Of a stretch of 55,640 nt of DNA, positions 423 through 55,640 are shown piece by piece (within the stretch, counting starts at the first letter, position 1; every line of letters starts with the position of its first letter). Below the pieces are notes generated by a model. It was not told the DNA's origin. It searched no databases and was given only the letters and a program-made list of their open reading frames with translations. This stretch comes from a virus (taxonomy: Duplodnaviria > Caudoviricetes), in IMG/VR virus record IMGVR_UViG_3300009082_000005, positions 1 through 55,640 of that record; one strand, given 5' to 3'. A program made the position numbers and the translations under genes.

Positions 423-559
423 TTATGTAAGTTTCAATCTTTGCAGTACCATCCATTAAAACAAGGATTGAAACAAATTTAAACTACTCCGTAAGGAGAC
501 GAAAACACTATAATTTATAATTTAATCCCCGTAAGGGGACATGATTGAAACTTACATAA
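423..559 (+). ncRNA. Candidate RNA of three stacked CRISPR-repeat-like units enclosed by a 17-bp inverted repeat (Racr-like)
   Basis: TTATGTAAGTTTCAATC (423-439) / GATTGAAACTTACATAA (543-559); units end in AAAACAAGGATTGAAAC (474), CTCCGTAAGGAGACGAAAAC (506), CCCCGTAAGGGGAC (540). Confidence 0.65.
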
Positions 560-5295: not shown

Positions 5296-5517
5296 GTGTT
5301 TATTATGAATGCAGATTACAAAGATAAAATAAGAGCATTTATGATTTTAAAGAAACTTAATAGGGAAGATGTATCTAAAGAAATCGGTATATGCAAAACT
5401 AGTTTTTGTCTTAAATTAAATGGGCATAATGAATTTTTAATTTCAGAAGCCATAAAATTGGCTAAAATTCTCGGATGTACAATAGATGATATTTTTGGAG
5501 AAAACGAAGCAGCTTGA
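5296..5517 (+). CDS. XRE/Cro-like HTH regulator
   Basis: REDVSKEIGICKTSFCLKLNG...F..SEAIKLAKILG.TIDDIF; real start probably ATG 5305. Confidence 0.85.
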   Translation: MFIMNADYKDKIRAFMILKKLNREDVSKEIGICKTSFCLKLNGHNEFLISEAIKLAKILGCTIDDIFGENEAA

Positions 5518-5756: not shown

Positions 5757-6650
5757 ATGAATTATAGTTTTGATGTTGATGTTGCAACTTATTTAAAAAA
5801 TGTTAACGAGGCTGTTTTCGTTCATAATATAGCATATTGGATATTGCATAATAAAGCAAACGATACAAATTTTAATGATGGATATTATTGGACTTATAAT
5901 ACTCAACAAGCTTTTTCAGAATTATTCCCATTCTGGACAAGAAGACAAATAAGGACAATAGTTGATAATTTAAAATCTAAAAATATTTTAATTGTTAATC
6001 AATTTAATAAAAAAAATTATGACCAAACTAAATGGTATACCTTGAATCATTCATTTACAAAGGAATTTTATAAAGAAATATATATAGAATCAACTAATAA
6101 TGCCAATGGTCAAATCGGTCAATTCGATAATAATGATAGTTTTATGCAAAAAAATACTTCACAATCCACTAATGACCTGAATGGTCAAATCAGTCAATTG
6201 AAATTGACTAAAAAGTCAATTTCAATTGACCAAAGTGTCAATCCTATACCAAATATAAACACAAATATAAACACAAATAATAATAATATATTGGCGATTG
6301 AAGAAAATTTTGAAAACCTCTGGTCTTTATTCCCTAATAAAAAAGGGAAGGCATCTGTAAATAAAAAATCAAAGGAATATTTTTATAATTTAGGTTTTGA
6401 AAAGTCTAAAGAAATAATTCAAAGATACCTGGATTATGTTTCAGAAAGAAGAAAAGAGTTTTCTAGTCTAAATTATCAAAATGGGTCTACTTTTTTTAAT
6501 AGTGGATATGTTGATTATTTAGATGAAAATTATACAGAATATAAGGCTAAAGTTTACAACAAGCCACAGCAGACGACAAATTATGAACAAAGAAAATATG
6601 ATGATGATTTCTTTGATAATTTGTATGACAATGTTGAATATATTAAATAA
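5757..6650 (+). CDS. Phage replication initiator 1 (N-terminal wHTH, internal iterons)
   Basis: DGYYWTYNT...LFPFW...DQTKWY N-domain; FENLWSLFPNKKGK and NGSTFFN C-domain; internal repeats. Confidence 0.8.
   Translation: MNYSFDVDVATYLKNVNEAVFVHNIAYWILHNKANDTNFNDGYYWTYNTQQAFSELFPFWTRRQIRTIVDNLKSKNILIVNQFNKKNYDQTKWYTLNHSFTKEFYKEIYIESTNNANGQIGQFDNNDSFMQKNTSQSTNDLNGQISQLKLTKKSISIDQSVNPIPNINTNINTNNNNILAIEENFENLWSLFPNKKGKASVNKKSKEYFYNLGFEKSKEIIQRYLDYVSERRKEFSSLNYQNGSTFFNSGYVDYLDENYTEYKAKVYNKPQQTTNYEQRKYDDDFFDNLYDNVEYIK
6106..6243. repeat. Iteron-like repeats, probable origin 1
   Basis: AATGGTCAAATC(G/A)GTCAATT twice plus inverted AATTGAC copies, followed by AT-rich AAATATAAACAC repeats. Confidence 0.65.
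6576..6650 (+). repeat. 75-nt segment duplicated at 20246..20320 (69/75 identical)
   Basis: Encodes TNYEQRKYDDDFFxNLYDNxxYIK at the end of both initiators; first 39 nt identical. Confidence 0.95.
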
Positions 6651-6662
6651 AGGGAGAGACTT

Positions 6663-15092: not shown

Positions 15093-15584
15093 TATTATTG
15101 TATACTCATGTATTTTAAGCTTATTATCATAAAGAATATATCTTTCATTTCCATCCTTATCCTTTATTTCAATCCTTGCCTCTAATACCTCAATAGCTGA
15201 TTCTTTTATATCATCATCAATCAAAGAAAAGTCAAACTCTGGTGATGTTTCTCCGGGCAATACAGTTTCACTGCTGTCAATGTATTCTGTAGTATTATTA
15301 TCTTTAAAAATTACTTTAAATTCTATTTTAGTTATAGCATATTCAGAATTATTTTTATATATTCCAACAAGATTATTGGACCCATAAGATGTTTTCTTCA
15401 ATTCAAATTTTACTTCCAGATCGTTATAAATTTCTGGGGCTTTTTCTTTTTCCGTAACTTCTGTTTTTTCTGTTGTTGTTGTAGCATCTGTATTTTTCCC
15501 ATCATATTTTTCAACTTCTGGTCCATAATCACAGCCAGACAAAATGCAAACCATTATTATCATTACTAAAATTGTTTTTTTCAT
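15090..15584 (-). CDS. Lipoprotein
   Basis: MKKT + hydrophobic core + lipobox LSGC; Ig-like C-domain with VLPGETSPEF. Confidence 0.8.
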   Translation of the reverse strand: MKKTILVMIIMVCILSGCDYGPEVEKYDGKNTDATTTTEKTEVTEKEKAPEIYNDLEVKFELKKTSYGSNNLVGIYKNNSEYAITKIEFKVIFKDNNTTEYIDSSETVLPGETSPEFDFSLIDDDIKESAIEVLEARIEIKDKDGNERYILYDNKLKIHEYTII

Positions 15585-15692
15585 AGGGATCTCCTTTGTT
15601 TTATTTTTACTTAATTATATATACTTCAAATATTTCCTAATATTAAAAATTTATTAAATTAATTAAATTAAAAATACCTCATTGATTTTTTT

Positions 15693-16047
15693 CTTTACAT
15701 TTCACCATGGTCGTATTAATACGATAACAAACTTTATAAAGTTGAATTGGTAAGTCTCCTTTACATTTCACCATGGTCGTATTAATACTTTTAAAGATAT
15801 AAAAGAAAATTATTATATATACCTTTACATTTCACCATGGTCGTATTAATACTTTGATAACATGATTGCTTTCCTATTTGATTTTGCTTTACATTTCACC
15901 ATGGTCGTATTAATACCAAATATTATCATGAATACTATTAATATTTGTTATCCTTTACATTTCACCATGGTCGTATTAATACGAAACAAGTTGAATAATA
16001 AAATTTCTAATCTTGAGCTTTACATTTCACCATGGTCGTATTAATAC
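15693..16047 (-). CRISPR. CRISPR array: 6 identical 30-nt repeats, 5 spacers of 34-36 nt
   Basis: CTTTACATTTCACCATGGTCGTATTAATAC at 15693, 15759, 15823, 15887, 15953, 16018; minus-strand sense GTATTAATACGACCATGGTGAAATGTAAAG. Confidence 0.98.
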
Positions 16048-16150
16048 CCACTACAAAACATACTGTTTTCAAGTGCTATGAAGCAAAAAAAAGTAAAATT
16101 TATATGTCAATGTTCGATAATGTAAAAACCATAGTAGATCGACATATTTT
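16048..16150 (-). promoter_or_regulatory. CRISPR leader with inverted-repeat motif
   Basis: AT-rich; ATATGTCAAT (16102-11) / ATCGACATAT (16138-47) 9/10 inverted repeat. Confidence 0.6.
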
Positions 16151-16159
16151 ATTATGTAT

Positions 16160-16292
16160 ATATTTATTTTCGACCAATTATAGTGTAAATGTTCGACCTT
16201 TAGTCGAGCTGCTCACTACATAATTACGTAGCTGCTTGGCGAGTTCTAATATAGCCTCGCCTTTAGGACGGCAAATCGCCCCCGGCTATCCC
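16160..16292 (-). ncRNA. Candidate Cas12f tracrRNA
   Basis: Anti-repeat TTTACA-N7-TGGTCG on the minus strand (16171-16189) pairs with repeat TGTAAA and CGACCA; several GC-rich stems upstream. Confidence 0.7.
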
Positions 16293-17534
16293 AAAATCAG
16301 GATTTGCAATATTAAAAGCTGCATTATAATCAGCATTTTCAGAAAAATCACAGTTTTTACAAATGAATTTTGATTGACTTTTCCTGTTTTCTTTATCTTT
16401 AAATCCACATTTTGAGCATGTTTGACTTGTATATTTAGGATCAATCAATATTACATTTATACCTTCTTTTTCTGCTTTATATGTTATTTTACTTTGTAGA
16501 TCATAATATGTCCAATTTTTTAAAAATAAATTATCTTTTGATATTCCAGATAAATTTTCCATTCTAATTTCTTTACAATTTTCTCTAATGGCTAAATCAA
16601 TTATTCTTTTTGAATATCTATCATTTATTAAATTTCTAAACCTGGAAATTTTATCTGATATCTTTGTAACATTTTTTAACATGCAATTACGCCCACGACC
16701 TTTTCTACCTTTTCCAGCAACTAATAATTGTTGTCTTTTTTTATATCTTTCAGCCTCTACTTTTTTTCTAAATGCTTCTATTTCTCCGCCTGTAATTTTA
16801 TATCTTTTAAGAGTTCCAAAAATAGCCATGTATACAGGATAAATAATACCCATATCTATTCCCATTATGTTTAAACGTTCTACAGAAATTTGTTCAAAAG
16901 AATATGTTAAAAATAACATAAATTTTTTATTTTTTTTGTCATACCTTAATTGGCTTTCTTTTATGCTGTATTTTTCCTCGAAAATTCTTGATAAAATGCT
17001 TCTTTGTGAATTATCAGAAACAATTAAATTAAATAAAAACTTTCCAGATTCTCTGTTAATTTGTTTTTTGTGAACACAAGATAATAAACTTATATCTGCA
17101 AAATATTTTTTATCTTCTTTATGTAAATTAATACTTCTGTTATGTAATGTTATACAATTAGACTTTTTAAAAACACATAAAGTCTTTTCACCTTTGAGAA
17201 TGTCGATTCTATCATTATTAAATCTTCCAATAGCTTTTTTTACTGCACTTGTACGATTAGAACTGCAATTTTGGATATATTTTTTACCTAAAAATGAATC
17301 GATATATCCATCAAAAGTTTTGTAAAATTCAGCTTTTTCACATTTCTGTAGAATTTCATTAGGTTTAGGAAATAAACCATGTTTTTCTTTATAATCTAGC
17401 TTAAATGTAAAAAATTCATATGCTGCATTAATTGCAGTATTCATAACTTTTTTCTGTTCAAACATAAGTTCATGAATTATTTTATATTCACTTTTATTAT
17501 TTAAATATATTTCAAATTTACAAACTGCATTCAT
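16263..17534 (-). CDS. cas12f: Type V-F CRISPR nuclease, Cas12f1-like (TnpB-derived RuvC)
   Basis: RuvC motifs GIDMG, RMENL, NADYNAA; Zn finger CSKC/CKNC; GGEIEAFRKKVE and NWTYYDLQ.KI.YKAE recalled as shared with AsCas12f1; adjacent array. Confidence 0.88.
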   Translation of the reverse strand: MNAVCKFEIYLNNKSEYKIIHELMFEQKKVMNTAINAAYEFFTFKLDYKEKHGLFPKPNEILQKCEKAEFYKTFDGYIDSFLGKKYIQNCSSNRTSAVKKAIGRFNNDRIDILKGEKTLCVFKKSNCITLHNRSINLHKEDKKYFADISLLSCVHKKQINRESGKFLFNLIVSDNSQRSILSRIFEEKYSIKESQLRYDKKNKKFMLFLTYSFEQISVERLNIMGIDMGIIYPVYMAIFGTLKRYKITGGEIEAFRKKVEAERYKKRQQLLVAGKGRKGRGRNCMLKNVTKISDKISRFRNLINDRYSKRIIDLAIRENCKEIRMENLSGISKDNLFLKNWTYYDLQSKITYKAEKEGINVILIDPKYTSQTCSKCGFKDKENRKSQSKFICKNCDFSENADYNAAFNIANPDFGIAGGDLPS

Positions 17535-17543
17535 ATTTTTACC

Positions 17544-17813
17544 TCAATTTCTATTAAAATCATTTTTATTTTTTACAGTATAACTTATATTATAATTTTC
17601 ACCAGTAATTTTTAGAATATTATCTACTATTAAAGAATTATATCTAGTTTCTAAAATTCCTTTTGCAAATTCAGTCGGAACTTCCAAAATAATATTATTA
17701 TGATCAACTTGTAAAGGTATAATTGTCTTTATCCATGTGTTAAAGCTTAGTTCTGATAATTCATTTTTCAATAAATTTAATAATTTTGCCCATAAATCAT
17801 TCAATAAAACCAC
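17544..17813 (-). CDS. Stand-alone DnaA N-terminal domain (domain I) protein
   Basis: LW...L..LK.ELSELSFNTWIK.I.P......IILEVP.EFAKGILE.RY..LI; stops after about 86-89 aa; likely TTG start 17804 after AAGGAG. Confidence 0.85.
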   Translation of the reverse strand: MVLLNDLWAKLLNLLKNELSELSFNTWIKTIIPLQVDHNNIILEVPTEFAKGILETRYNSLIVDNILKITGENYNISYTVKNKNDFNRN

Positions 17814-18005
17814 TCCTTATTTATAAAATACATAAATATTATATACAAAATTTCCTATAATTTAAATTTAGTTAATCGAATAAGAAAAACAAAGCATACT
17901 TGCAAGAAAACAAGTAATGTATTGCAAATGTCAATACAAAGTCTCTTAATCGTGATTGACTTTATAACCAAGTACAACATAAAATTATAATAAAGTGAAT
18001 GGAGA

Positions 18006-19516: not shown

Positions 19517-20320
19517 ATGATGGCTAAAAAATACTATTGGTTAAAGTTAAAAGATGATTTTTTTAGGCAAAAACAAATCAAAAAATTAAGGAAAATTGCT
19601 GGTGGAGATACATACACGATTATATATTTAAAAATGTTATTACTTAGTTTGCAACATGAAGGAAAATTATATTTTGAAGGTGTTGAAGATGATTTCTCAG
19701 AAGAAATTGCATTAGAAATAGATGAAGAATCGGAAAATGTAAAAGTCACAATGTTGTTTTTACTAAAAAATAATTTAATTAAAGAAGTTTCTACAGATGA
19801 ATTTTTTATGAACTCAGTTCCAAAAATGGTTGGAAAGGAATCTGAAAGTGCTGAAAGAACTAGAAGATACAGGGAAAGAAAGAATTTGATAGAATCAAAA
19901 ACGTCACAATGTGACGGCGATGTGACTTTGTGTGACACAGAGCAAGAGCAAGAGATAGAGCAAGAGATAGAGAAAGAGCAACAACAAGAGCAAAAGTCAA
20001 AACATGTTGTTGTTGTTGAACTAAAGAATAAAATTGAAAATATTATTAATTCTAAAATTACAATTAAGGGAGTAAATTCTCTTTTAGAAAAATCATCTTT
20101 GGAAACAATAAATTATTATCTTGATAACTGGGATAAATTTAAAAATAGGAATAAGGAAAATGTAACAGGATATTTTATAAATGCAGTTATAGATAAATAT
20201 AATATCCCAAAAGAAGAGAAAGGAAAAAGCAAACCAGTACAAAGTACAAATTATGAACAAAGAAAATATGATGATGATTTCTTTAATAATTTGTATGACA
20301 ATATTAAATATATAAAGTAG
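19517..20320 (+). CDS. Phage replisome organizer (replication initiator 2)
   Basis: KKYYWLKLKDDFF...IKKLRKIAGGDTYTIIYLKMLL; ESAERTRRYRER; internal repeats. Confidence 0.9.
   Translation: MMAKKYYWLKLKDDFFRQKQIKKLRKIAGGDTYTIIYLKMLLLSLQHEGKLYFEGVEDDFSEEIALEIDEESENVKVTMLFLLKNNLIKEVSTDEFFMNSVPKMVGKESESAERTRRYRERKNLIESKTSQCDGDVTLCDTEQEQEIEQEIEKEQQQEQKSKHVVVVELKNKIENIINSKITIKGVNSLLEKSSLETINYYLDNWDKFKNRNKENVTGYFINAVIDKYNIPKEEKGKSKPVQSTNYEQRKYDDDFFNNLYDNIKYIK
19903..19992. repeat. Iteron-like repeats, probable origin 2
   Basis: GTCACA followed by TGTGAC at 19910, 19921, 19931, then AGAGCA/AGAGAT tract. Confidence 0.65.
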
Positions 20321-20333
20321 GAGGAATGAGTTT

Positions 20334-27381: not shown

Positions 27382-28680
27382 ATGGCAAAAATATATAAAA
27401 ATGAAACATGTTTAGATGCCTGTTTGAAAAGATATGATTATATATTTACAGAATTTGAAAATATATATTTCAGCGTATCAGGCGGAAAAGATAGCTCTGT
27501 TATGCTTCAATTAGCTAATATGAAAGCTAAAGAGCATAATAAAAAATTCGATATTCTTTTTATTGATTTAGAAGCACAATATAAAGCAACTATTGACCAT
27601 GTGCAAGAATTGTTTGATTCGTGTACACAGATTAATAAAATATACTGGATATGTCTACCTTTATCTTTACGTAATGCAGTGTCTATTTTACAGCCAAAAT
27701 GGACATGCTGGGATATTTCAGAAAAAAATAAGTGGGTTCGTGATATGCCTAAAAATAAGCATGTTATAAATGAATCCAAAATAGAAAAATTAAACTGGAA
27801 TTGGTTTAAACCTCAAATGGAATTTGAAGAATTTATTATTGAATTCGCAAAATGGTATTCAGAAAAAAACGGATTAACAGCAACAGGGATTGGAATAAGA
27901 AGTGATGAATCGCTAAACCGTTTCACTACTATAATTTCAGAATCAAAAGAAAAGTATAAAAATAAACAGTGGACTACTAGAGTTCGAAAAAATGCTAAAC
28001 CTTTTTACTGTTATAATTTTTTTCCTCTATATGATTTTCGCACAGAGGATATATGGGGAACAGTATTCAAATATAATTTTTTATACAATGAAATATATGA
28101 AATGATGTATAAAAATGGGTTATCAATTCATGAACAAAGACTATGTCAACCTTATGGAGATGACCAAAGAAATGGATTAGACCAGTTTAAAGCTCTTGAA
28201 TACGAAACTTGGGAAAAAGTTTTGAACAGGGTAAACGGAGTTAATTTTGGAAATATTTATGCAAGGACTAGTTTATTAGGTAATCTTACAACTCAAAAGC
28301 CAGATGAAATGAACTGGCAAGAATATACAGTATTTTTATTAGAATCAATTAGAATTTATGCTCCAGAACTAGAGGAACATTATTATAATAAAATTAAAAC
28401 TGCTATGGCTTGGTGGGAAGAAAAAGAAAATACGCCAGTTGAAAAAATAGCAGATACAGGAGATTTAAAACTAGAATCTGAAAGAAAAATTGCTACATGG
28501 AGAAGGATAGCAAGAGCAATTGAAAAAAATGACTTTTGGATGAAAAGACTTAGCTTTGCAGCAACTAAGTCAGATGTTGAAAAACTTAACAAGCTTAAAG
28601 AAAAATATAGAAAGCTTGTTGGAGATGGGAAAATTGACAAAGACATGAATAGATATTTGAAAGGAGAATTATGTGTATGA
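27382..28680 (+). CDS. ibrA: PAPS-reductase/PP-loop family protein with DUF3440-type C-terminus (IbrA/YbdN-like)
   Basis: SVSGGKDS, FIDLEAQY, GIRSDESLNR, PLYDF.TEDIW, QRLCQPYGD.QR.GL, RVNGVNFGNIY. Confidence 0.88.
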   Translation: MAKIYKNETCLDACLKRYDYIFTEFENIYFSVSGGKDSSVMLQLANMKAKEHNKKFDILFIDLEAQYKATIDHVQELFDSCTQINKIYWICLPLSLRNAVSILQPKWTCWDISEKNKWVRDMPKNKHVINESKIEKLNWNWFKPQMEFEEFIIEFAKWYSEKNGLTATGIGIRSDESLNRFTTIISESKEKYKNKQWTTRVRKNAKPFYCYNFFPLYDFRTEDIWGTVFKYNFLYNEIYEMMYKNGLSIHEQRLCQPYGDDQRNGLDQFKALEYETWEKVLNRVNGVNFGNIYARTSLLGNLTTQKPDEMNWQEYTVFLLESIRIYAPELEEHYYNKIKTAMAWWEEKENTPVEKIADTGDLKLESERKIATWRRIARAIEKNDFWMKRLSFAATKSDVEKLNKLKEKYRKLVGDGKIDKDMNRYLKGELCV

Positions 28681-32931: not shown

Positions 32932-33423
32932 ATGGCAAATAAAACAAAATACATACCTGAATTTAACCAAATAATTTTTGAATTAAAGATTACAGGTAAA
33001 AACATTACTGAAATTTGTTCGATTTTGAAAATAGATAAAAAAACATTTTATAGGTGGTTAAAAAGATATGATAATTTTAAAATAAGTTATGAAAAAGCTA
33101 ATAATGCAAAATTTAAGGCAAAAGAAACTTTAATTGATAAAGCTTTAGGGTTTACTAGGAACATAAAAGAACTTACACCAACCGGGAAATTAATAAAATA
33201 TGATAAATATTATCCACCTGATTTTCAATCAATTAAATATCTTTTAAGGAATATAAGCGGTTTTGACAAAGAATTGGAAAATAAAATTAAAATAGATAAT
33301 AAAAGACTTGAACTTGAAGAAAAGAAATTGAATACTGATACAAATACTGAAGGTAAAGTAATAATTGTTGAAGGTGAAGACAAATATTTAGAGTGGAAAA
33401 ATAAAAAAAATGCTGGAAGCTAA
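32932..33423 (+). CDS. terS: Terminase small subunit
   Basis: TKY, HTH with TFYRWLK, ALG, YYPPD; directly before TerL. Confidence 0.8.
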   Translation: MANKTKYIPEFNQIIFELKITGKNITEICSILKIDKKTFYRWLKRYDNFKISYEKANNAKFKAKETLIDKALGFTRNIKELTPTGKLIKYDKYYPPDFQSIKYLLRNISGFDKELENKIKIDNKRLELEEKKLNTDTNTEGKVIIVEGEDKYLEWKNKKNAGS

Positions 33424-34690
33424 CATTGATAAGATAGATATTTTCAATTTGATTAATGAAAATTTTTATGAATGGTGGTATGAAATAGCTGATAAATATT
33501 TATATAGAGTGCTTAAGGGTGGGAGGAATTCTGCAAAATCAACACATGTAAGCTTTAGAAAAATTTATAGAATGATGAAATATCCTATCAATACTTTAGT
33601 TGTTCGTAAAGTCGCTGGAACATTAGCGACTTCTGTTTTTGAGCAATTAAAAGAAGCTATATGCTTGATGAATGTTGATTATTATTGGAAAGATTATAAA
33701 AGCCCTTTAAGGTTAGTATATAAACCAACTGGACAGGAAATTTTATTCAGGGGAGCAGATGACCCACAAAAAATAAAATCAATTAAAACATCAAGATTTC
33801 CTTTATCTGAATTATGGATTGAGGAACTGTCAGAGTTTAGAAGCGAAGATGAAGTACAAACAATTGTTGACTCAGTTGTAAGAGCTAAATTAAAAAATGG
33901 TTTAAATTATGGGATTGATTTTACTTATAATCCTCCAAAAAATAAAGCTAATTGGTGTAACAAAAAATACAATACTCAATTTTTACCTTCAAATACCCAT
34001 GTTCATCATAGTACTTATTTAGATAATTTACACGTTTCAGAAGCTTTTATTGAAGAAGCCGAAGAGGTAAAAAAGCTTAATCAGAATAGATATAAATGGC
34101 TATATCTTGGTGAAGCTCTCGGAGGTGGAATTGTTCCATTTTCTAACTTGGAATTCAGAACAATTACTGATGATGAAATAAAAAGATTTGATAATATTAA
34201 ACAAGGTCATGACTTTGGTTTTAGTGTTGACCCTGCTAATTTTGGAAGACAACATCTTGATAAAACAAGGGCAATACTTTATTTTATAGATGAAATTAGA
34301 GCAGTAAAACTTAAAAATAAAATATTGGCAGATAAAATTATTGAAAGAAATTACAATGATTCAATAATAATTGCTGATAGTGAAAATCCACAGGGGATAG
34401 ATGAATTAAGAAGTTATGGTATAAAAATTAAGGGAGCCAAAAAAGGACCCGGCTCAGTTGAGTATGGTCTTGAATGGTTAGATACTTTAAATAAAATTGT
34501 AATAGATTATAAAAGAACTCCGGGAGCTGCAAAAGAATTTGAGTCTGCTGATTATAAATTAGACAAAGATGGAAACCAAACTGCTGAATTAGATGGCGAG
34601 GATCATTCAATCGACCAAACTAGGTATAGCCTCGAAAATGATATGAAAAATAAAGTTTTAGGATGGAAAGAAAGGAATAAAGCATGTTAA
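33410..34690 (+). CDS. terL: Terminase large subunit, PBSX family
   Basis: KGGRNSAKS, LWIEE, TYNPP, HSTYLDN, DFGFSVDP, DHSIDQTRY. Confidence 0.95.
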   Translation: MLEANIDKIDIFNLINENFYEWWYEIADKYLYRVLKGGRNSAKSTHVSFRKIYRMMKYPINTLVVRKVAGTLATSVFEQLKEAICLMNVDYYWKDYKSPLRLVYKPTGQEILFRGADDPQKIKSIKTSRFPLSELWIEELSEFRSEDEVQTIVDSVVRAKLKNGLNYGIDFTYNPPKNKANWCNKKYNTQFLPSNTHVHHSTYLDNLHVSEAFIEEAEEVKKLNQNRYKWLYLGEALGGGIVPFSNLEFRTITDDEIKRFDNIKQGHDFGFSVDPANFGRQHLDKTRAILYFIDEIRAVKLKNKILADKIIERNYNDSIIIADSENPQGIDELRSYGIKIKGAKKGPGSVEYGLEWLDTLNKIVIDYKRTPGAAKEFESADYKLDKDGNQTAELDGEDHSIDQTRYSLENDMKNKVLGWKERNKAC

Positions 34691-34985: not shown

Positions 34986-36338
34986 ATGGAATTATCTATT
35001 GAAAAAGTAATCAAGCTAATTGAAGAAAAAAAGAAAAAAGAATACAAGGGTAGAAAGTATTATTATTACAAACCTGAACAAATGCCATTTTACCAACAGC
35101 CCAATTTACAAAATAAAATTGTTACAAAACAGGTTGAAAATACAAAAGAGGTTTATACTAATTGGTTTAAGGTACTTGTTAATCAAAAGATTGATTATTC
35201 TTTGTCTAAGCCTGTCACTGTAAAACCCAATATTCCTGAACAATTCAACATCGAGGATATAGTTGACAAAACAGCATTAAATGCTTCTATGGATAGTATA
35301 GGGTGGGTACAGATTTATATAAATAAGCAAAAAAAGCTTGATTGGATTAATAGAAACGATTCTCAAATTATTTCTATTTTTGATGAATATAACAAATATA
35401 TTGAAAATATAATTTATTTCTGGGTAGATGAAGAATCAGAAAAAGAGAAAAATGAATCTGAAAAAATATATAATGTACAGGTTTGGGATAATTCACAGGT
35501 AACAGAATTTCAAATAAAAGATAATAAGCTATATGGAACAACAACAACAAAAAATCATTACCTTGAAGTAATAAAATATAGAGATGTAGAAGAAGAAATA
35601 AACCCAAAAAGCTTTGGTTTTGTGCCTTTTATACCTCTTTATAATAATAAGAATCACGAATCAGACCTTGAAGGAATAGACATTTTACTTGATTGTTATA
35701 ATGAGATTGCTACAGGATTTATAAAAAATGTCCGAAAATTTCAAGAAATGGTTATGATGTTACGTGGGTATGGTGGACAAGATTTAGACGAATTTATGGA
35801 ACAACTTAAAAAGTATAATGTAATTCCAGTCGATGAAAAAGGTGATTTTGACTTTGTAAAGGTTGATATTCCTGTCGAGGCAAGGTCTGTTTTAATGGAT
35901 ATAATACGAAGGAATATATTTATACTTGGCAGAGGCGTTGACCCTACTGAGGATTTTGGCGGCAGTAATATAACAAATACTCTTATAAAAACCAGATACT
36001 CTAATCTTGACATGAAATGCTCTGATATGGAAAAACAAATCAGATTATTTTACATACAACTTATTGCAATTATCAATTTATATTATTCTGTAAATATTAA
36101 CAATGAAATAAAGTTTACAAGAAGCCAGATATTTAACGAGACTGAGCAGATTGACAATTGTGTAAAAAGCATGGGTTTAGTTAGCGAAGAAACTATACTT
36201 GAAAATCACCCTTTTGTTGAAGACGTGAAGAAAGAATTAACTAAATTAGATGCAGAAAAAGAAAAAAATATGAAATTATTTAATGACTCAACACATGATA
36301 GAAAAGTGTTTGATGATAAAGAAAGTAGTGTGGCATGA
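34986..36338 (+). CDS. Portal protein, SPP1 Gp6-like
   Basis: LVNQKIDY, FGFVPFIP.YNN....SDL, L.GYGG, Y..LD.K, S.ETILENHPFVED. Confidence 0.92.
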   Translation: MELSIEKVIKLIEEKKKKEYKGRKYYYYKPEQMPFYQQPNLQNKIVTKQVENTKEVYTNWFKVLVNQKIDYSLSKPVTVKPNIPEQFNIEDIVDKTALNASMDSIGWVQIYINKQKKLDWINRNDSQIISIFDEYNKYIENIIYFWVDEESEKEKNESEKIYNVQVWDNSQVTEFQIKDNKLYGTTTTKNHYLEVIKYRDVEEEINPKSFGFVPFIPLYNNKNHESDLEGIDILLDCYNEIATGFIKNVRKFQEMVMMLRGYGGQDLDEFMEQLKKYNVIPVDEKGDFDFVKVDIPVEARSVLMDIIRRNIFILGRGVDPTEDFGGSNITNTLIKTRYSNLDMKCSDMEKQIRLFYIQLIAIINLYYSVNINNEIKFTRSQIFNETEQIDNCVKSMGLVSEETILENHPFVEDVKKELTKLDAEKEKNMKLFNDSTHDRKVFDDKESSVA

Positions 36339-38424: not shown

Positions 38425-39315
38425 ATGGCTTATAATAACAGCATTGCATATGCTTCAAAATATGTAGAAATGTTGGATAGGGTATATAAAGCTGGCTCAG
38501 TTACAAGCATATTAGAACCAGCTGCAAACTTATATAAATTTGATAGTATTAATGAAAAAACTGTATACATTAAAACTTTGTCGGCTGAGGGTCTTGGAAC
38601 TTATAATAGGAGCACCGGGTATGATGATGGTGACTTAACAATCACATGGGCTTCTCACCAGTTTAGTCAAGATAGGGGTAAAAGGTTTATTCTTGATACA
38701 CAGGATGAAAAAGAAGCAATGATACAAATGGCAGAAGTAGGGGCTGAGTTTCAACGTGTTTATGTAAATTCAGAAGTTGACGCGTACCGTTTTGAAACAC
38801 TTTGTACAAATGCAGGTACTACAGCAACACCAGCAGCATTAACTTATGATACTGTTATAGCTGCAATTAGAACAGCGATACAAACACTGGATAATGCAGA
38901 AGTTCCACAAGACCAGAGAATTTTATTTGTATCGGCTGCAATTATGCAAGCAATGGAAGATTCAGGAGAATTTTTTAAGACAATAAATGTTACACAAAAT
39001 AATGGAACAATTGATACAACTATTAAATCATTTAATAATATGCCTGTTATTCAAGTGCCTTTGGGAAGGTTTTATAATAATTTTGATTTCAGTGCTACAA
39101 ATGGTTATAGTGTTGCTGCTGGTGGAGATGCTATTAATTTTATATTAGTTTATAAACCTGCTGCAATGGCAATTATAAAGTACAAAACAAGTAATATTAT
39201 AGATGCAGCAGCAAACCAGACAGCAGATGGGTACATTCTAAAATATAGAATTTACCATGATTGTTTCTGTCCCGCCAATAAGGTTAATGGAATATATGTT
39301 CATAAAGCTACTTAA
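38425..39315 (+). CDS. Major capsid protein
   Basis: GLG.Y.R..GY..G, QDRG..F..D..D..E, EVDAYRF, YRIYHD.F...NK..GIY.H; follows scaffold. Confidence 0.9.
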   Translation: MAYNNSIAYASKYVEMLDRVYKAGSVTSILEPAANLYKFDSINEKTVYIKTLSAEGLGTYNRSTGYDDGDLTITWASHQFSQDRGKRFILDTQDEKEAMIQMAEVGAEFQRVYVNSEVDAYRFETLCTNAGTTATPAALTYDTVIAAIRTAIQTLDNAEVPQDQRILFVSAAIMQAMEDSGEFFKTINVTQNNGTIDTTIKSFNNMPVIQVPLGRFYNNFDFSATNGYSVAAGGDAINFILVYKPAAMAIIKYKTSNIIDAAANQTADGYILKYRIYHDCFCPANKVNGIYVHKAT

Positions 39316-39410: not shown

Positions 39411-40517
39411 GTGAAAAATTTGGCTAATACATTTGAAGGAAGAATAGCGGAAATTGAAACATCTGTAACACAGGTAACAAGTTCAGCGTCTTCCATAGCT
39501 TCTAGTGCAACAGTTCTTGATTCTCTTGTTACTGCACAATCAGGTAATGTAAGTACAATAGAAAGTACTGCATCAACAATTGATAGTTCAGCAAGCATAA
39601 TGGAAAGTGTTGCAAGTTTAGTTGATAGCATTGGAACTGAGCAAGATACAATAATTTCTAATGTTTCAACTGTAGATAGTAAAGTAGTAGTAAATAGCAC
39701 ATCAGTAAGCACTGTAGATTCAAAAGTAGTTGTTGTTTCTACAGCAACAAGTACAGTAGATAGTAAATTATTATCTGTGAACACTGCTCTATCTGGTGTC
39801 GTTTCTGTAGCAGATTCCAAAGTTGTATCTACAGCAAACAAAGTTGATAGTACAGCAGTTTTAGTTTCAACATGTGATTCGAAAGTTGTAAGTGTTAATA
39901 CTGCCTTAAGTACAAGCATAAGTACTGCAAGTAGCAAAGCTACAGTAAACAGTACATCAATAAGCACAGCAGATTCAAAAATAGTTGTTGTTTCTACAGC
40001 TTTAAGCACATTAACTGGCAATTTAAGTACAGCAGATAGTAAAATAGTAATAGTTGATAGCAAGATAGTTGTAAATAGCACATCTATAAGCACAGCTATT
40101 GTAAACATATCTACATTAGATAGTAAAGTAGTTGTTGTTGATAGTGTAGCAGATGCAATTGTTACAGCTGTATCTACAGTTGATTCCAAGGTCGTAATAG
40201 TAGATAGTGTAGCAGATGCAATTGTTACAGCTGTATCTACAGTTGATAGTAAGATAGTAATAGTTGATAGCAAAGTAGTTGTAAATAGCACATCGATAAG
40301 TACAGCTATTGTAAACATATCTACAGTAGATAGTAAAGTAGTTGTTGTTGATAGTGTAGCAGATGCAATTGTTACAGCTGTATCAACAGCTGATAGTAAG
40401 ATAGTAATAGTAGATAGTGTGGCAGATGTAATTGCCGTTGATACTGCTACAATTATAAGCACTTTGGCAGTATTAAGTGCTGCTATAAGCGTTGTAGACA
40501 GCAAAGTAACTACCTAA
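39411..40517 (+). CDS. Ser/Thr/Val/Asp-rich heptad-repeat fibre-like protein
   Basis: 7-residue units such as VSTVDSK/VVVNSTS; no Pro, Trp, Tyr, His; GAGGTG likely serves as RBS for TTG 39420. Confidence 0.8.
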   Translation: MKNLANTFEGRIAEIETSVTQVTSSASSIASSATVLDSLVTAQSGNVSTIESTASTIDSSASIMESVASLVDSIGTEQDTIISNVSTVDSKVVVNSTSVSTVDSKVVVVSTATSTVDSKLLSVNTALSGVVSVADSKVVSTANKVDSTAVLVSTCDSKVVSVNTALSTSISTASSKATVNSTSISTADSKIVVVSTALSTLTGNLSTADSKIVIVDSKIVVNSTSISTAIVNISTLDSKVVVVDSVADAIVTAVSTVDSKVVIVDSVADAIVTAVSTVDSKIVIVDSKVVVNSTSISTAIVNISTVDSKVVVVDSVADAIVTAVSTADSKIVIVDSVADVIAVDTATIISTLAVLSAAISVVDSKVTT

Positions 40518-44944: not shown

Positions 44945-46051
44945 ATGCCAGTTGGAGTAGTAACAACAACAGTACCAGAGGTAAACGATATAGTTCAAGG
45001 CGAGTTTAAGGCTTATTATAATTACAGGCAACCTACACAGCTATTAATTGGAGCAACACAGGGCGGGGCAAAATTAGACATAAATAGGGTAATTGATGAA
45101 ATAAAGTTCGATGGTTCGTATGGACCAACTCTGGATACTAATGGAGTACCATTGATAAGAACTAGAGAAATAATAGGCACAATAACGCTTGAATCACTAT
45201 ATCTAAAATATTACAATAGAAAAATTATTTCTAATTGCGAAAGCACTGGTACATGGGAATCTAAAGAATGGGCAGGAGCAGCAGGTGGAACATATGCAGC
45301 AGAAACAACTATAGTAAATAGTGGCGACCAATCCGCAAAAGCAACAATACCATTGTCGACTGCAAATGCTGGTATACATGAAGTTTTTGCAAGTGCTAAA
45401 GACTTAACAGTATTTGATAATAGTGAAACAAGTGTAGTCGGTGATTATATTGGATTTGCAATATATATAACAACTCAGGATAAAGCAGATTTGGGAAGTG
45501 CAGATATAAGAATAGCTTTTCATATGGATGCAGAACTTACAGAAACTAATTTATATTATTATGATGTTGCTGCAAGTGCTTTAACAGCTAATGATTGGAC
45601 TACTTTTAAAATAGCAAAATCAAGTTTTACACAAAGTGGAACTGGAAATTGGGCAGCGGTTACAGGGGTAAGTTTCAAGGTAGATGCTGGAACAACAGCA
45701 GAAACTGTATTTTATGTTGATTCTATAGAATTAATACAAAATCATACTTATTCCGCACCGGTAGCAATAAACGGAAGTGGCATGACTTATACCGATGAAA
45801 CAACTTATCGAAAAATTAAGGAATCTCTTGAAATAGTTGATGATGATTATATTAATAATATAACAGTTGTTGGCCAAAAAGGTGATGGGTATACCTTTGA
45901 ATGGATTTTTGAAAATTGCCTGAATGATGGAGCAATAAGCCTTGCTTTACAGGAAAAACAAGAAATTGTTTCCTCAACACAATTTACAGCACATTACAAT
46001 AAAAATACAATGACAACGGTACCAATAAAAATTAGAGAATATGTAGCGTAG
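44945..46051 (+). CDS. Tail tube protein paralogue with about 180-aa inserted carbohydrate-binding-like domain
   Basis: IGATQGG.KL.I.R....IKFDGSYGP and ENCLN.G...LQEK.E shared with next gene; insert with W.TFKI.KSSF and FYVD.I. Confidence 0.75.
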   Translation: MPVGVVTTTVPEVNDIVQGEFKAYYNYRQPTQLLIGATQGGAKLDINRVIDEIKFDGSYGPTLDTNGVPLIRTREIIGTITLESLYLKYYNRKIISNCESTGTWESKEWAGAAGGTYAAETTIVNSGDQSAKATIPLSTANAGIHEVFASAKDLTVFDNSETSVVGDYIGFAIYITTQDKADLGSADIRIAFHMDAELTETNLYYYDVAASALTANDWTTFKIAKSSFTQSGTGNWAAVTGVSFKVDAGTTAETVFYVDSIELIQNHTYSAPVAINGSGMTYTDETTYRKIKESLEIVDDDYINNITVVGQKGDGYTFEWIFENCLNDGAISLALQEKQEIVSSTQFTAHYNKNTMTTVPIKIREYVA

Positions 46052-47483: not shown

Positions 47484-47806
47484 TGCTTATTGAAAAATTT
47501 TATATAGATTGTACCCATAAAGTTAAAACTAAAAATCAAAGTACTACAAATAGGTCTATTCCAAAATATACAGATATTTCAATTAAAGGTTATATTAGCT
47601 CTCAGAGGGATATTCCTGTTGTTGTTGCTGGAAAAAAGACAATTGATACAACATATAAGTTTTTTAGCTCAACATATAATTTTAAAAATGGTGACTTAAT
47701 TATTTACGATGGTGATACTTATGAAGTTGCTGGAATGCCAAAAAATACAGCAAACAAAAGCCATCATTGCAGGATTTATGTAAGAAAAATAGAGGGAGTA
47801 ACATAA
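47483..47806 (+). CDS. Head closure (stopper)-like protein, displaced
   Basis: GD.I...G.TYEV...P.N.....HH. Confidence 0.7.
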   Translation: MLIEKFYIDCTHKVKTKNQSTTNRSIPKYTDISIKGYISSQRDIPVVVAGKKTIDTTYKFFSSTYNFKNGDLIIYDGDTYEVAGMPKNTANKSHHCRIYVRKIEGVT

Positions 47807-54320: not shown

Positions 54321-54361
54321 ATAACAAAAATGCATATTAAATTTTGAATGGAAGTGTAATT

Positions 54362-55180
54362 ATGATTGATTCAAGCGGATTAATAAATGTAAAAGAAATA
54401 TATGGAACTCCTGTAATTGTTGATATATTGCCTAAAAAATCAAACTATTCTAATTGGGTAAAAAAAGATAATGAATATTTGACAAACCACAATACTGGCA
54501 ATAGTTCTAAAGGTGCAAATGCTTTGATGCACGCAAATTATTTAAAAAATCTCACTGAAAAAAAGAGCTGGCATGTTACAGTTGATGATAAATATATAAT
54601 TCAACATTTACCTTTGAATGTTAATGGATGGCATTGTAGCGATGGCGTCGGCTCTGATTCTGGAAATATGAATAGTATTGGTATAGAAGGCTGCATGAAT
54701 TCAGATGGAAATTGGCAAAAAACCAGATTGAACATGATTAAATTTGATGTTTTTTGCATGAATAATCTGCCTAATTTAATAGGAGACAACTGGAAAAAAA
54801 CAATTGTCCCACACAAACACTGGTATAATAAAAATTGTCCAAGTGTAATACTGGCTGAGTCAGGTGGATTTGATAAATTTGTTGCTGATTGTATAAATTA
54901 TAATTTAAATCTAAGCAGCATAAAAAATAGTTCAGATGAAGAATATATAAAAATATTAAAGTTGGTTTCTCCAGTATATTATAATACATGGATTCCTTTC
55001 ATTGAAAAATATCACGTAGAAGGAATGTTGAATGTAAAAGGTTTGGTTAAAGCTATATTTGAATACAATTTAAAAGAATTAGAAAAATCAAAAATAGATT
55101 ACTCAGAATTGAAAAATAAAATAAATAAAATAAATAAACTATGGGATGAATATAATGAAAAATTTAAATCAATTGCTTAA
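54362..55180 (+). CDS. Endolysin, N-acetylmuramoyl-L-alanine amidase (Amidase_2)
   Basis: HNTGN, SWHVTVDD, GWHC.DG, N..SIGIE, PHKHW..KNCP. Confidence 0.92.
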   Translation: MIDSSGLINVKEIYGTPVIVDILPKKSNYSNWVKKDNEYLTNHNTGNSSKGANALMHANYLKNLTEKKSWHVTVDDKYIIQHLPLNVNGWHCSDGVGSDSGNMNSIGIEGCMNSDGNWQKTRLNMIKFDVFCMNNLPNLIGDNWKKTIVPHKHWYNKNCPSVILAESGGFDKFVADCINYNLNLSSIKNSSDEEYIKILKLVSPVYYNTWIPFIEKYHVEGMLNVKGLVKAIFEYNLKELEKSKIDYSELKNKINKINKLWDEYNEKFKSIA

Positions 55181-55493: not shown

Positions 55494-55640
55494 GATACTA
55501 ACATTTGTTACAAATAACGGTATAGCTGTTGTTTTGATGTTTTATTTTCTTAAAAATAATCATAGAGCAATGACCGACTTATTGAAACAAAATGCTGAAT
55601 TAATTAATGAAATAAGAGATATAAAGCTTGAACAAAAAGA
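55486..55640 (+). CDS. Holin-like single-TM protein (65 aa), continues through the junction to position 166
   Basis: GGAG RBS; MNEILTFVTNNGIAVVLMFYFLKNN...KNTG; TAG at 164-166. Confidence 0.75.
   Translation, partial: MNEILTFVTNNGIAVVLMFYFLKNNHRAMTDLLKQNAELINEIRDIKLEQK

What the first reader, a model, noticed from the sequence alone, without database searches (positions are those of the whole stretch)
15693..17534. Complete miniature CRISPR-Cas12f system carried by a 55-kb phage
Seen: 423-aa nuclease with all three RuvC acidic motifs (GID, MEN, NAD) and a C4 zinc finger, followed on the same strand by a structured intergenic region, leader and six perfectly identical repeats with five distinct spacers, all within 1.85 kb. 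No cas1, cas2, cas4, tnpA or IS ends are visible. Known: size and motifs match my recollection of AsCas12f1 (type V-F), a compact tracrRNA-dependent nuclease. One deviation is NAAFNIA where NAARNIA is usual. Inference: an active inter-phage weapon and a candidate new compact editor.
Basis: partly seen in the sequence, partly recalled or inferred. Interest (0 to 1): 0.9.

Follow-up and report, generated by a model that had tools for sequence, protein, structure and literature searches.

The report
Phage-borne miniature CRISPR-Cas12f system
A complete 55.6-kb tailed phage carries a real, self-contained miniature CRISPR system (a 423-residue Cas12f nuclease, its helper RNA and five guides); this kind is already known from bacteria and viral metagenomes, and its targets remain unknown.

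Summary
A 423-aa ORF (16263-17534, minus strand) is followed on the same strand by six identical 30-nt repeats with five unique 34-36-nt spacers (15693-16047). The protein is a full-length relative of solved Cas12f1 structures (E 7.5e-83) and of the PADLOC Cas12f and Cas12u3 profiles (375 and 364 bits). It keeps D227, E326, R384, D402 and the CCCC zinc finger. The 'NAAF' deviation falls at a naturally variable position.

I located the tracrRNA at 16283-16181 (minus), overlapping the last cas12f codons. A covariance model built only from relatives finds it as the single significant hit in the window. Across 13 loci, 96.5% of cells pair and 15 of 24 pairs show compensatory changes. An anti-repeat follows at 16193-16159.

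The record is a complete phage with terminal repeats, terminase, portal, head, tail and lysin genes. It has no Cas1, Cas2, Cas4 or TnpA. This is a type V-F1 (V-U3-like) system, a new member of a known kind.

The 'inter-phage weapon' reading is untested. None of the five spacers found a target in IMG/VR, GenBank phages, PLSDB or about 390 Clostridiaceae genomes.

In passing: a promoter-driven solitary repeat at 428-556 mimics a Clostridiaceae type I-B CRISPR repeat and is a candidate RNA anti-CRISPR.

The parts
16263..17534 (-). cas12f gene, 423 aa (type V-F1 / V-U3-like effector). Catalytic residues D227, E326, R384, D402; zinc finger C373, C376, C392, C395.
   Evidence: Searches give the ORF; phmmer against PDB gives E 7.5e-83 over residues 17-414. 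PADLOC Cas12f scores 375.4 bits and Cas12u3 363.6 bits, both full length. One search shows conservation across 40 homologues. One search lists the essential residues of AsCas12f1.
16181..16283 (-). tracrRNA scaffold with four helices. Helix 1 (about 16282-16266) lies inside the last codons of cas12f; the stop codon is at 16265-16263.
   Evidence: Model R1 was built from 7 relatives without the window. It gives one significant hit here, 35.9 bits, E 3.5e-5; the next best hit is 8.8 bits. Covariation across 13 loci is.
16159..16193 (-). anti-repeat of the tracrRNA. It pairs with repeat positions 1-27, interrupted by internal loops.
   Evidence: RNAduplex gives -18.5 kcal/mol, within the best 2.1% of 924 genome windows; the homologous position directly after helix 4 also gives the best duplex in 5 of 7 relatives examined.
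16048..16158 (-). A+T-rich spacer or leader between the anti-repeat and the first repeat. The promoter is not established.
   Evidence: One search gives the sequence; promoter-like sites are no more frequent than in shuffles (20 found against 20.9 expected), and no terminator-like site was found.
15693..16047 (-). CRISPR array of six identical 30-nt repeats and five spacers: S1 15983-16017, S2 15917-15952, S3 15853-15886, S4 15789-15822, S5 15723-15758.
   Evidence: Array pieces 15693-15786 and 15886-15980 were recovered with 0 differences in a run of another study.

Best explanation
This is a self-contained type V-F1 (V-U3-like) CRISPR-Cas12f module carried in the early/replication region of a complete, probably temperate, tailed phage of a low-G+C Firmicute, most likely in Clostridiaceae. 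The inferred mechanism follows the solved AsCas12f1 homologue. The cas12f mRNA, or a transcript starting near its 3' end, yields a roughly 135-nt tracrRNA with four helices and an anti-repeat. The array is transcribed in the same direction. Each repeat pairs with the anti-repeat. A Cas12f dimer binds the tracrRNA:crRNA duplex, and the 3'-flanking spacer guides PAM-dependent double-strand DNA cleavage by a single RuvC site (D227, E326, D402, with R384). With no Cas1, Cas2 or Cas4, the five guides are fixed cargo. They most plausibly serve conflict with other mobile elements such as competing phages or plasmids. Shown here: the gene, the repeats, the conserved RNA and its covariation, the missing adaptation genes, and the phage context. 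Inferred: transcription, processing, dimerisation, cleavage and the class of target.
For: Protein. phmmer against PDB gives E 7.5e-83 to 8.2e-82 to 422-446-aa chains 8j12, 8j3r, 7wju and 8dzj over residues 17-414. It gives 9.5e-72 to 'Cas12f' 9nzq and 5.7e-56 to 'Cas12f1' 9i8y, but only 3.2e-5 to ISDra2-type TnpB 8bf8. PADLOC Cas12f scores 375.4 bits and Cas12u3 363.6 bits, both full length. The four residues whose alanine substitution abolishes AsCas12f1 activity (D225, E324, R383, D401; passages of 10.1101/2023.07.03.547593) align to D227, E326, R384 and D402 (my indexing of the alignment). These are invariant or nearly so in 40 homologues.

tracrRNA. RNAalifold on 7 relatives predicts 4 helices, with 11 of 24 pairs compensatory. 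The model built from them finds the window once. On 13 loci, 96.5% of cells pair against 32-40% when the partner column is slid, 15 of 24 pairs change on both sides, and 0 of 500 shuffles reach the observed values.

Family context. Among loci with a near-full-length homologue and at least 600 nt of flank on both sides, an array-like repeat cluster lies within 1.2 kb in 23 of 31 viral, 31 of 39 genomic and 20 of 30 metagenomic loci (heuristic detector). The window's protein sits in an 8-row clade with support 100. All the other members carry the same RNA plus repeats.

Literature. V-U3 Cas12f1 systems lack adaptation genes and occur in Clostridia and Bacilli. Their minimal locus is gene, tracrRNA region and array. 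They cut dsDNA next to 5' T- or C-rich PAMs, and the As and Sp orthologues interfere with plasmids in E. coli (passages of PMC7229846).

Maintenance. The ORF is intact and the six repeats are identical. Locus pieces were recovered with 0 differences in two soil runs of another study dated 2024, against 2017 for the likely source run. Two 151-nt contigs of a metatranscriptome lie on the ORF at 16947-17234.
Against: None of the 5 spacers has a target. There was no self-match with up to 8 substitutions. There was no exact 26-nt hit in IMG/VR. GenBank phages, PLSDB and Clostridiaceae genomes gave only weak A+T-rich matches with 6 or more mismatches or gaps.

The anti-repeat duplex is modest. At -18.5 kcal/mol it falls in the best 2.1% of windows, and the last 3 nt of the repeat are unpaired. 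In an 8x8 energy matrix the cognate repeat was the best partner of its tracr region in only 1 of 8 rows, and the cognate tracr region was best for its repeat in 3 of 8 columns.

Promoter-like sites are not enriched and no terminator was found. The RNA contigs cover only part of the ORF, not the tracrRNA or array, and RNA libraries can contain DNA.

The residue aligned to AsCas12f1 R335 is Leu336; the R335A substitution reduces activity in that enzyme. Not all tested V-U3 orthologues interfered in E. coli. NCBIfam places the protein only in the general 'guided_TnpB' subfamily (152 bits, cut-off 100), and it falls below the Cas12f2 cut-off (119 against 450).
Confidence: 0.72

Rival explanations
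1. Same machinery, different purpose. The fixed guides target the host rather than rival phages, for example its chromosome, defence islands, resident prophages or plasmids. That would make this counter-defence or host takeover.
For: No phage protospacer was found in IMG/VR or GenBank phages. The review PMC11656645 (passages) states that some phage CRISPR systems target host defence systems. The phage also carries a likely anti-CRISPR repeat decoy against a host type I-B system, so it invests in counter-defence.
Against: There was no convincing match in 390 scored Clostridiaceae genomes or in 5 genomes holding Cas12f relatives, nor in 72,556 plasmids. However, only the two best candidates per genome were scored, and the true host is unknown.
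Confidence: 0.15
2. An inert passenger. The cassette was recently acquired from a bacterium or another element and is not expressed or not active in this phage.
For: There is no adaptation module, no identifiable target, no demonstrated promoter, and Leu at the R335-equivalent position. Flanking genes differ between relatives, so the cassette moves as a module.
Against: The 423-codon ORF is intact with all catalytic and zinc ligands. The six repeats are identical. The tracrRNA keeps pairing in all four helices. The sequence is unchanged in runs of another study. RNA-library contigs lie on the ORF (weak).
Confidence: 0.08
3. An IS200/IS605-type TnpB with an omega RNA that merely lies beside unrelated repeats, so the repeats are not its guides.
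For: NCBIfam 'guided_TnpB' scores above its cut-off and sources annotate homologues as 'transposase'. The scaffold RNA overlaps the 3' end of the ORF, as omega RNAs do (the omega RNA comparison is recalled, not from a call).
Against: There is no Y1 transposase in the genome. IS200_TnpB scores 54.9 against a cut-off of 425, and IS607_TnpB 27.6 against 350. PDB TnpB entries are about 78 orders of magnitude weaker than Cas12f1 entries. The scaffold RNA is followed by a segment complementary to the repeat, at the same place as in relatives. Most relatives carry arrays.
Confidence: 0.02
4. A guide-directed DNA binder used for regulation of phage or host genes, in the manner of TldR or Cas12m, rather than a nuclease.
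For: The locus lies in the early/regulatory region. It is next to a DnaA_N-domain protein and diverges from an HTH gene.
Against: All RuvC residues are intact, unlike nuclease-dead relatives. No spacer matches the phage itself.
Confidence: 0.03

Closest known systems
AsCas12f1 (Acidibacillus sulfuroxidans, type V-F1 / V-U3; PDB 7wju, 8dzj, 8j12, 8j3r). That these entries are AsCas12f1 is recalled; 7wju_A is 422 aa, the length the papers give.
   Same: Almost the same size (423 against 422 aa). Alignable over residues 17-414 at E about 1e-82, roughly 40% identical by my hand count of the match line. Shares D/E/R/D catalytic residues, the CCCC zinc finger, gene-tracrRNA-array order, a guide scaffold of four stems plus a split repeat:anti-repeat, and the absence of adaptation genes.
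   Different: It sits on a phage, not a bacterial chromosome. It has a different repeat and tracrRNA sequence. The scaffold is shorter: 103 nt plus an anti-repeat of about 35 nt, against the 171-nt sgRNA scaffold. Leu replaces R335. PAM, activity and dimerisation are untested.
Un1Cas12f1 / Cas14a (archaeal type V-F1)
   Same: Same superfamily and RuvC/zinc-finger core. tracrRNA-dependent.
   Different: A much weaker match: 7l48 and 7c7l at E about 1e-28, over residues 205-413 only. Some Cas14 loci include cas1, cas2 and cas4.
Virus-encoded compact type V systems (Cas12j/CasPhi, Cas-lambda; V-F1/V-U3-like effectors next to viral arrays)
   Same: A phage-borne single-effector type V system with a small array and no adaptation genes. 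[quoted passage not shown]
   Different: CasPhi entries match only weakly (7odf at 9.8e-7, C-terminal 70 residues). CasPhi needs no tracrRNA (recalled). The phage here is an ordinary 55.6-kb phage, not a huge one.
Bacillus phage Mgbh1 gp53 ('transposase-like protein', KU665491)
   Same: A cultured 58,951-bp phage encoding a homologue (34.6% identity over 93% of the query). A two-repeat, one-spacer mini-array lies just upstream (L203 2235-2337, 66-nt period).
   Different: Only one spacer, with the array upstream of the gene. Its paper does not mention the array: in PMC5135824 the word 'transposase' occurs 0 times, and CRISPR appears only in connection with host spacers.
ISDra2 TnpB (IS200/IS605 omega-RNA-guided nuclease)
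   Same: Ancestral fold, with the scaffold RNA beginning inside the 3' end of the ORF.
   Different: E is only 3.2e-5. There is no TnpA. It uses a multi-spacer array with a separate anti-repeat instead of a single fused guide.

Membership tests
Type V-F1 (V-U3) CRISPR-Cas12f | Effector homologous over its full length to characterised Cas12f1 | tested here: met
   E 7.5e-83 over residues 17-414. Cas12f 375.4 bits and Cas12u3 363.6 bits, profile positions 6-392 of 399.
Type V-F1 (V-U3) CRISPR-Cas12f | Intact tri-split RuvC (D, E, D), the essential Arg, and a CCCC zinc finger | tested here: met
   D227, E326, R384, D402, C373, C376, C392 and C395.
Type V-F1 (V-U3) CRISPR-Cas12f | A CRISPR array adjacent on the same strand | tested here: met
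   Six identical repeats and five spacers, 215 nt downstream of the stop codon.
Type V-F1 (V-U3) CRISPR-Cas12f | tracrRNA with an anti-repeat encoded between the gene and the array | tested here: met
   Searches show a conserved, covarying scaffold found by a model that excluded the window. Searches show the anti-repeat, which is weak taken alone. Transcription is not shown.
Type V-F1 (V-U3) CRISPR-Cas12f | No adaptation module (the feature that separates V-U3 from Cas14-type loci) | tested here: met
   Cas1, Cas2 and Cas4 HMMs give no hit at E<=0.1 in the complete genome.
Type V-F1 (V-U3) CRISPR-Cas12f | Guide- and 5'-PAM-dependent dsDNA cleavage by a homodimer on one guide RNA | not testable with these tools
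   No protospacer was found, so no PAM can be inferred. No complex prediction was run.
IS200/IS605 or IS607 TnpB | Scores above the curated IS-TnpB models | tested here: not met
   NF038281 scores 54.9 against 425, and NF038280 scores 27.6 against 350. Only the broad NF040570 passes (152 against 100).
IS200/IS605 or IS607 TnpB | Associated TnpA and transposon ends, with a single omega-RNA guide | tested here: not met
   There is no Y1 transposase in the genome, and there is an array of five guides instead of one. Transposon ends were not searched for as such.
Viral mini-array that relies on host Cas proteins | Repeats identical to a host array, with no effector of its own | tested here: not met
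   The locus has its own effector and tracrRNA. The exact repeat is absent from IMG/VR and JGI metagenome contigs. No repeat match was found in 390 scored Clostridiaceae genomes.
Solitary repeat unit / RNA anti-CRISPR (side feature at 428-556) | A single promoter-proximal unit that mimics a host CRISPR repeat and is not next to cas genes | tested here: met
   Rfam CRISPR-DR7 scores 39.4 bits against a gathering score of 37. There is 24-29 nt identity to long arrays in 13 of 389 Clostridiaceae genomes, one of them beside cas6b-cas3b-cas5b-cas7b-cas8b-cas4b-cas1b. Inhibition is not testable here.

The most novel reading that the evidence does not exclude
The phage fights on two CRISPR fronts with borrowed parts. 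First, it carries a portable, adaptation-free Cas12f cassette that hops between unrelated Clostridial phages and other mobile elements. Second, it carries a promoter-driven decoy of the host's type I-B repeat. The Cas12f lineage may itself parasitise type I-B. In relative L139 the tracrRNA anti-repeat pairs at -31 kcal/mol with a repeat that in Clostridiaceae belongs to a type I-B system. That would let such V-U3 cassettes use spacers made by host I-B adaptation. The window's solitary unit pairs with that foreign tracrRNA at -33.7 kcal/mol, so it could also sponge a rival Cas12f's tracrRNA. That would be a tracrRNA-directed RNA anti-CRISPR, which the Racr paper's main text does not describe ('tracrRNA' 0 times, 'V-F' 0 times).
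Probability: 0.15. Interest if true: 0.72.

Novelty: new member of a known kind. Interest (0 to 1): 0.42.

Why it matters
This is a clean, complete example of an ordinary-sized phage carrying its own miniature RNA-guided nuclease, helper RNA and guides in 1.85 kb.

The parts are now mapped well enough to clone and test directly: the gene, the tracrRNA limits, the anti-repeat, the repeat and the orientation. The protein is at most 57% identical to anything in a 5.8-billion-protein collection and is as small as AsCas12f1, so it is a reasonable candidate for compact-editor screening.

Biologically it adds a genome-resolved case to the survey-level observation that phages carry adaptation-free type V systems. 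With the type I-B repeat decoy at the genome end, it shows offence and counter-defence in one phage.

It does not change any established picture.

Tried and rejected
Target hunting found nothing:
- Exact 26-nt PAM-proximal prefixes of all 5 spacers gave 0 hits each in IMG/VR.
- The whole array by blastn against GenBank phages gave only A+T-rich matches at E>=0.03. Against PLSDB it gave E>=0.1.
- In 5 genomes with relatives and 390 scored Clostridiaceae genomes (11 genomes not scored, two candidates scored per genome), the six best places had 6-7 substitutions or needed gaps when re-examined. I reject them.
- Arrays of 135 related regions against the window gave no spacer hit.
- The exact repeat gave 0 hits in IMG/VR and in metagenome contigs.

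Other negative or weak results:
- Rfam gave no family for the main repeat or the tracrRNA.
- The 8x8 repeat-by-tracr energy matrix was not diagonal. It is not useful as a co-evolution test in such A+T-rich RNA.
- Promoter and terminator scans were uninformative.
- Model R1 does not reach L139's divergent tracr region (9.1 bits, E 0.53). That region rests on the duplex energy and my reading of the sequence only.
- PF01905 (DevR) missed the I-B Cas7 in 5 host genomes. PADLOC models then identified the system.
- Depth and coverage gaps of contig-only runs are not used as evidence. The absence of RNA contigs over the tracrRNA and array says nothing.

Tools and sources not available or not used:
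- The Cell 2022 paper on virus-encoded CRISPR systems is not held. What I say of it comes from citing passages in PMC12607003 and from recall.
- No structure or complex prediction was run, because the sequence match to solved structures already covers the protein.
- Supplements were not opened. Sequence tables of V-U3 loci (PMC7229846) and the subtype list of solitary repeats (PMC10651486) could bear on the novelty of both the cassette and the decoy.
Full report
OBSERVATION. The finding is accurate to the base. ORF 16263-17534 on the minus strand encodes 423 residues. Downstream on the same strand lie six identical 30-nt repeats, starting at 15693, 15759, 15823, 15887, 15953 and 16018. They are separated by five different spacers of 36, 34, 34, 36 and 35 nt. 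The protein has GID, MEN and NAD motifs and two CxxC pairs. The window is a whole IMG/VR virus record of 55,640 bp with direct terminal repeats, rated 100% complete. Bases 1-123 repeat at 55518-55640. PHROG matches identify large terminase (33410-34690), portal (34986-36338), major head (38425-39312), major tail (44945-46051), tape measure (47767-49686), endolysin (54344-55177), helicase, a RecE-like exonuclease and a weak integrase-like protein. Cas1, Cas2, Cas4 and Y1-transposase profiles find nothing in the genome at E<=0.1, while each rings in 6-9 of 14 control genomes.

THE PROTEIN. Against all PDB chains the best matches are 8j12, 8j3r, 7wju and 8dzj (422-446 aa). They score E 7.5e-83 to 1e-81 and align to residues 17-414. 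By recall these are AsCas12f1 entries. Next come 'Cas12f' 9nzq (9.5e-72) and 'Cas12f1' 9i8y (5.7e-56). Un1Cas12f1 entries match only the C-terminal half (about 1e-28), and ISDra2-type TnpB reaches only 3.2e-5. PADLOC's Cas12f and Cas12u3 profiles match end to end at 375.4 and 363.6 bits. Pfam sees only the C-terminal TNB domain. NCBIfam sees only the broad 'guided_TnpB' subfamily above its cut-off, so routine annotation would call this a TnpB or a transposase. The bioRxiv paper on the AsCas12f1 structure (passages) reports that D225A, E324A, R383A and D401A abolish cleavage. In the alignment these correspond to D227, E326, R384 and D402. All are invariant or nearly so among 40 homologues, as are the four zinc cysteines. 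One point against full activity is that the residue aligned to R335, whose alanine mutant is impaired, is Leu336.

THE HELPER RNA. The G+C-rich stretch that starts inside the last codons of cas12f is conserved next to the closest relatives. RNAalifold on seven relatives, without the window, predicts four helices, and 11 of 24 pairs show compensatory change. A covariance model built from those seven finds exactly one significant match in the 55.6-kb window, at 16283-16181 (minus). It spans the full model length at 35.9 bits, E 3.5e-5; the next hit scores 8.8 bits. Across 78 viral and metagenomic sources it finds 13 matches at E<=0.01, seven of which are its own training sequences. Across 80 genomic sources it finds 5. 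In several of these the RNA and array lie upstream of the gene instead. On the 13-sequence alignment, 96.5% of cells form standard pairs, against 32-40% when the 3' partner is slid by 1-3 columns. Fifteen of 24 pairs change on both sides, and no shuffle of 500 reaches any observed measure. The caveat is that this alignment was fitted to the model.

Directly after helix 4, positions 16193-16159 can pair with repeat positions 1-27 at -18.5 kcal/mol. Taken alone this is only within the best 2.1% of 924 genome windows, a set that includes the five windows overlapping the array itself. An 8x8 energy matrix did not single out cognate pairs: 1 of 8 rows and 3 of 8 columns. However, the best duplex falls at the homologous place in 6 of the 8 loci, and it is very strong in L127 at -35.3 kcal/mol. 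Four stems plus a split repeat:anti-repeat is the architecture reported for the AsCas12f1 guide. I therefore call 16283-16159 the tracrRNA gene. Its transcription, ends and processing are inferred.

FAMILY AND CONTEXT. The closest protein in a 5.8-billion-sequence collection is 57% identical. In a FastTree of 135 loci-encoded homologues, the window falls in an 8-member clade with support 100. The other members are three viral contigs (L004, L005, L006) and four metagenome contigs (L123-L126). All of them carry the RNA and 1 to about 15 repeats. Flanking genes are largely unrelated between these loci, so gene, RNA and array travel as a module. Among loci with enough flank, most homologues have an array-like cluster within 1.2 kb: 23 of 31 viral, 31 of 39 genomic and 20 of 30 metagenomic (a heuristic k-mer detector that missed the two-repeat L006). 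In the window the cassette lies in the early region. A DnaA_N-domain protein (17547-17813) ends 10 nt before cas12f on the same strand. An HTH gene, a Rad52-like annealase and a replisome organiser diverge from it. A cultured phage, Bacillus phage Mgbh1, encodes a 34.6%-identical 'transposase-like' gp53 with a two-repeat mini-array just upstream. Its paper does not mention this.

WHAT IT TARGETS. This is unknown. No spacer matches the phage itself with up to 8 substitutions. None has an exact 26-nt match in IMG/VR. GenBank phages, PLSDB, five genomes with relatives and 390 scored Clostridiaceae genomes gave only low-complexity matches, which fail on inspection. The 'inter-phage weapon' idea therefore rests only on analogy with viral mini-arrays and phage CRISPR systems (review passages).

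Pieces of the locus, including two array segments, occur with zero differences in two soil runs of a different study dated 2024. The probable source run is dated 2017. A metatranscriptome holds two 151-nt contigs inside the ORF. This suggests a stable, unchanging guide set and gives a weak hint of expression, no more.

COMPARISON WITH WHAT IS KNOWN. Karvelis et al. (PMC7229846, passages) describe V-U3 Cas12f1 systems as follows. They lack adaptation proteins, occur mostly in Clostridia and Bacilli, and are 422-497 aa long. Their minimal locus is gene, tracrRNA region and array. They recognise 5' T- or C-rich PAMs, and some orthologues show plasmid interference in E. coli. Every sequence-level criterion is met here; see the membership test. 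Phage carriage of compact type V effectors without adaptation genes, including ones near 'V-F1/VU-3', has been reported from viral metagenomes (PMC12607003, passages). That paper cites an earlier survey which is not held here. A 741,692-genome phage survey found only a single phage Cas12 sequence, a Cas12a, for its Cas12 tree (PMC12676247, passages), so such loci are easily missed. My verdict is a new member of a known kind.

NOTICED IN PASSING. Window 428-556 (+) holds a second CRISPR-related element. Rfam's CRISPR-DR7 model matches 439-474 above its gathering score (39.4 against 37 bits). The unit is enclosed by a perfect 13-nt inverted repeat and folds far better than shuffles (z -5.24, 0 of 200). 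It follows a near-consensus promoter, read by eye. Its 3' 24-29 nt are identical to the repeats of long arrays in 13 of 389 scored Clostridiaceae genomes. In one of these the array adjoins cas6b, cas3b, cas5b, cas7b, cas8b, cas4b and cas1b. This fits a solitary repeat unit, that is, a candidate RNA anti-CRISPR against a host type I-B system (PMC10651486, passages). It also points to a Clostridiaceae host.

The same repeat type forms the array beside a Cas12f relative on metagenome contig L139. The region after that gene contains a segment complementary to the repeat at -31.1 kcal/mol, and the window's unit pairs with it at -33.7 kcal/mol. The window's own tracrRNA pairs with the unit at only -12.6 kcal/mol. 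This hints that some V-U3 cassettes share repeats with type I-B systems. It rests on one locus.

LIMITS. The following were not done: a wet-lab test, PAM inference, a structure or complex prediction, and a tree with named reference proteins.

Noticed in passing
window 428-556 (+); promoter-like TTGACA 394-399 and TATATT 417-422: A solitary CRISPR repeat unit inside a strongly folded RNA. Rfam CRISPR-DR7 scores 39.4 bits against a gathering score of 37, and the fold has z -5.24. Its 3' 24-29 nt are identical to repeats of long arrays in 13 of 389 Clostridiaceae genomes, one of them beside a complete type I-B cas operon. It is a candidate RNA anti-CRISPR and a clue to the host. A degenerate second repeat end at 524-552 could instead make it a one-spacer mini-array.
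   Followed up: partly
L139 5237-6009 (metagenome contig): A Cas12f relative (39% identical) lies beside an array whose 37-nt repeat is of the Clostridiaceae type I-B kind. The region after the gene holds a complementary segment at about 5424-5441, with a duplex of -31.1 kcal/mol. This suggests an adaptation-free V-U3 cassette that shares repeats with type I-B. Model R1 does not reach this region.
   Followed up: partly
window 16266-16283 (-): Helix 1 of the tracrRNA lies within the last six codons of cas12f, which encode the unique tail ...GGDLPS. In relative L006 the ORF also reads through helix 1. This resembles the way TnpB omega RNAs overlap the 3' end of their gene (that comparison is recalled).
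   Followed up: partly
window 17547-17813 (-): An 89-aa protein made only of a DnaA N-terminal domain (PF11638, E 2.4e-13) ends 10 nt upstream of the cas12f start on the same strand. It may be co-transcribed. Its role is unknown.
   Followed up: no
L203 2235-2337 (Bacillus phage Mgbh1, KU665491 39257-39359): A cultured phage has a two-repeat, one-spacer mini-array directly upstream of gp53. gp53 is annotated as transposase-like but is a Cas12f homologue. The phage's paper does not mention it.
   Followed up: partly
L125 1372-1545: A close relative (53% identical) has the tracrRNA followed by a single repeat and no second copy. This is either a one-guide form or a decayed array.
   Followed up: no
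window 15400-17900 in runs X2, X3: Pieces of the locus, including the array segments holding spacers S5 and S2, occur with 0 differences in soil runs of a different study dated seven years after the likely source run. The guide set looks static.
   Followed up: partly
window 39669-40434 (+), inside ORF 39411-40517: Tandem repeats with periods of 63 and 84 nt (4 copies of a 197-nt register, 62-91% identical), plus a 102-nt repeat 255 nt apart. They lie in a 368-aa ORF next to the head gene that has no PHROG match. This is probably a repetitive structural or decoration protein.
   Followed up: no
window 5757-6650 and 19517-20320 (+): There are two paralogous replication-initiator or replisome-organiser genes. 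Their 3' ends share a 143-nt stretch at 75% identity (6520-6662 against 20190-20332).
   Followed up: no
window 27382-28680 (+): A phosphoadenosine phosphosulfate reductase-like gene (phrog_2302, E 2.4e-72) sits among the replication genes.
   Followed up: no
L228 10592-11605 (-) (genome G224): An AbiI-like abortive-infection gene (PADLOC, E 5.1e-46) sits inside a type I-B cas operon, between cas8b and cas4b.
   Followed up: no
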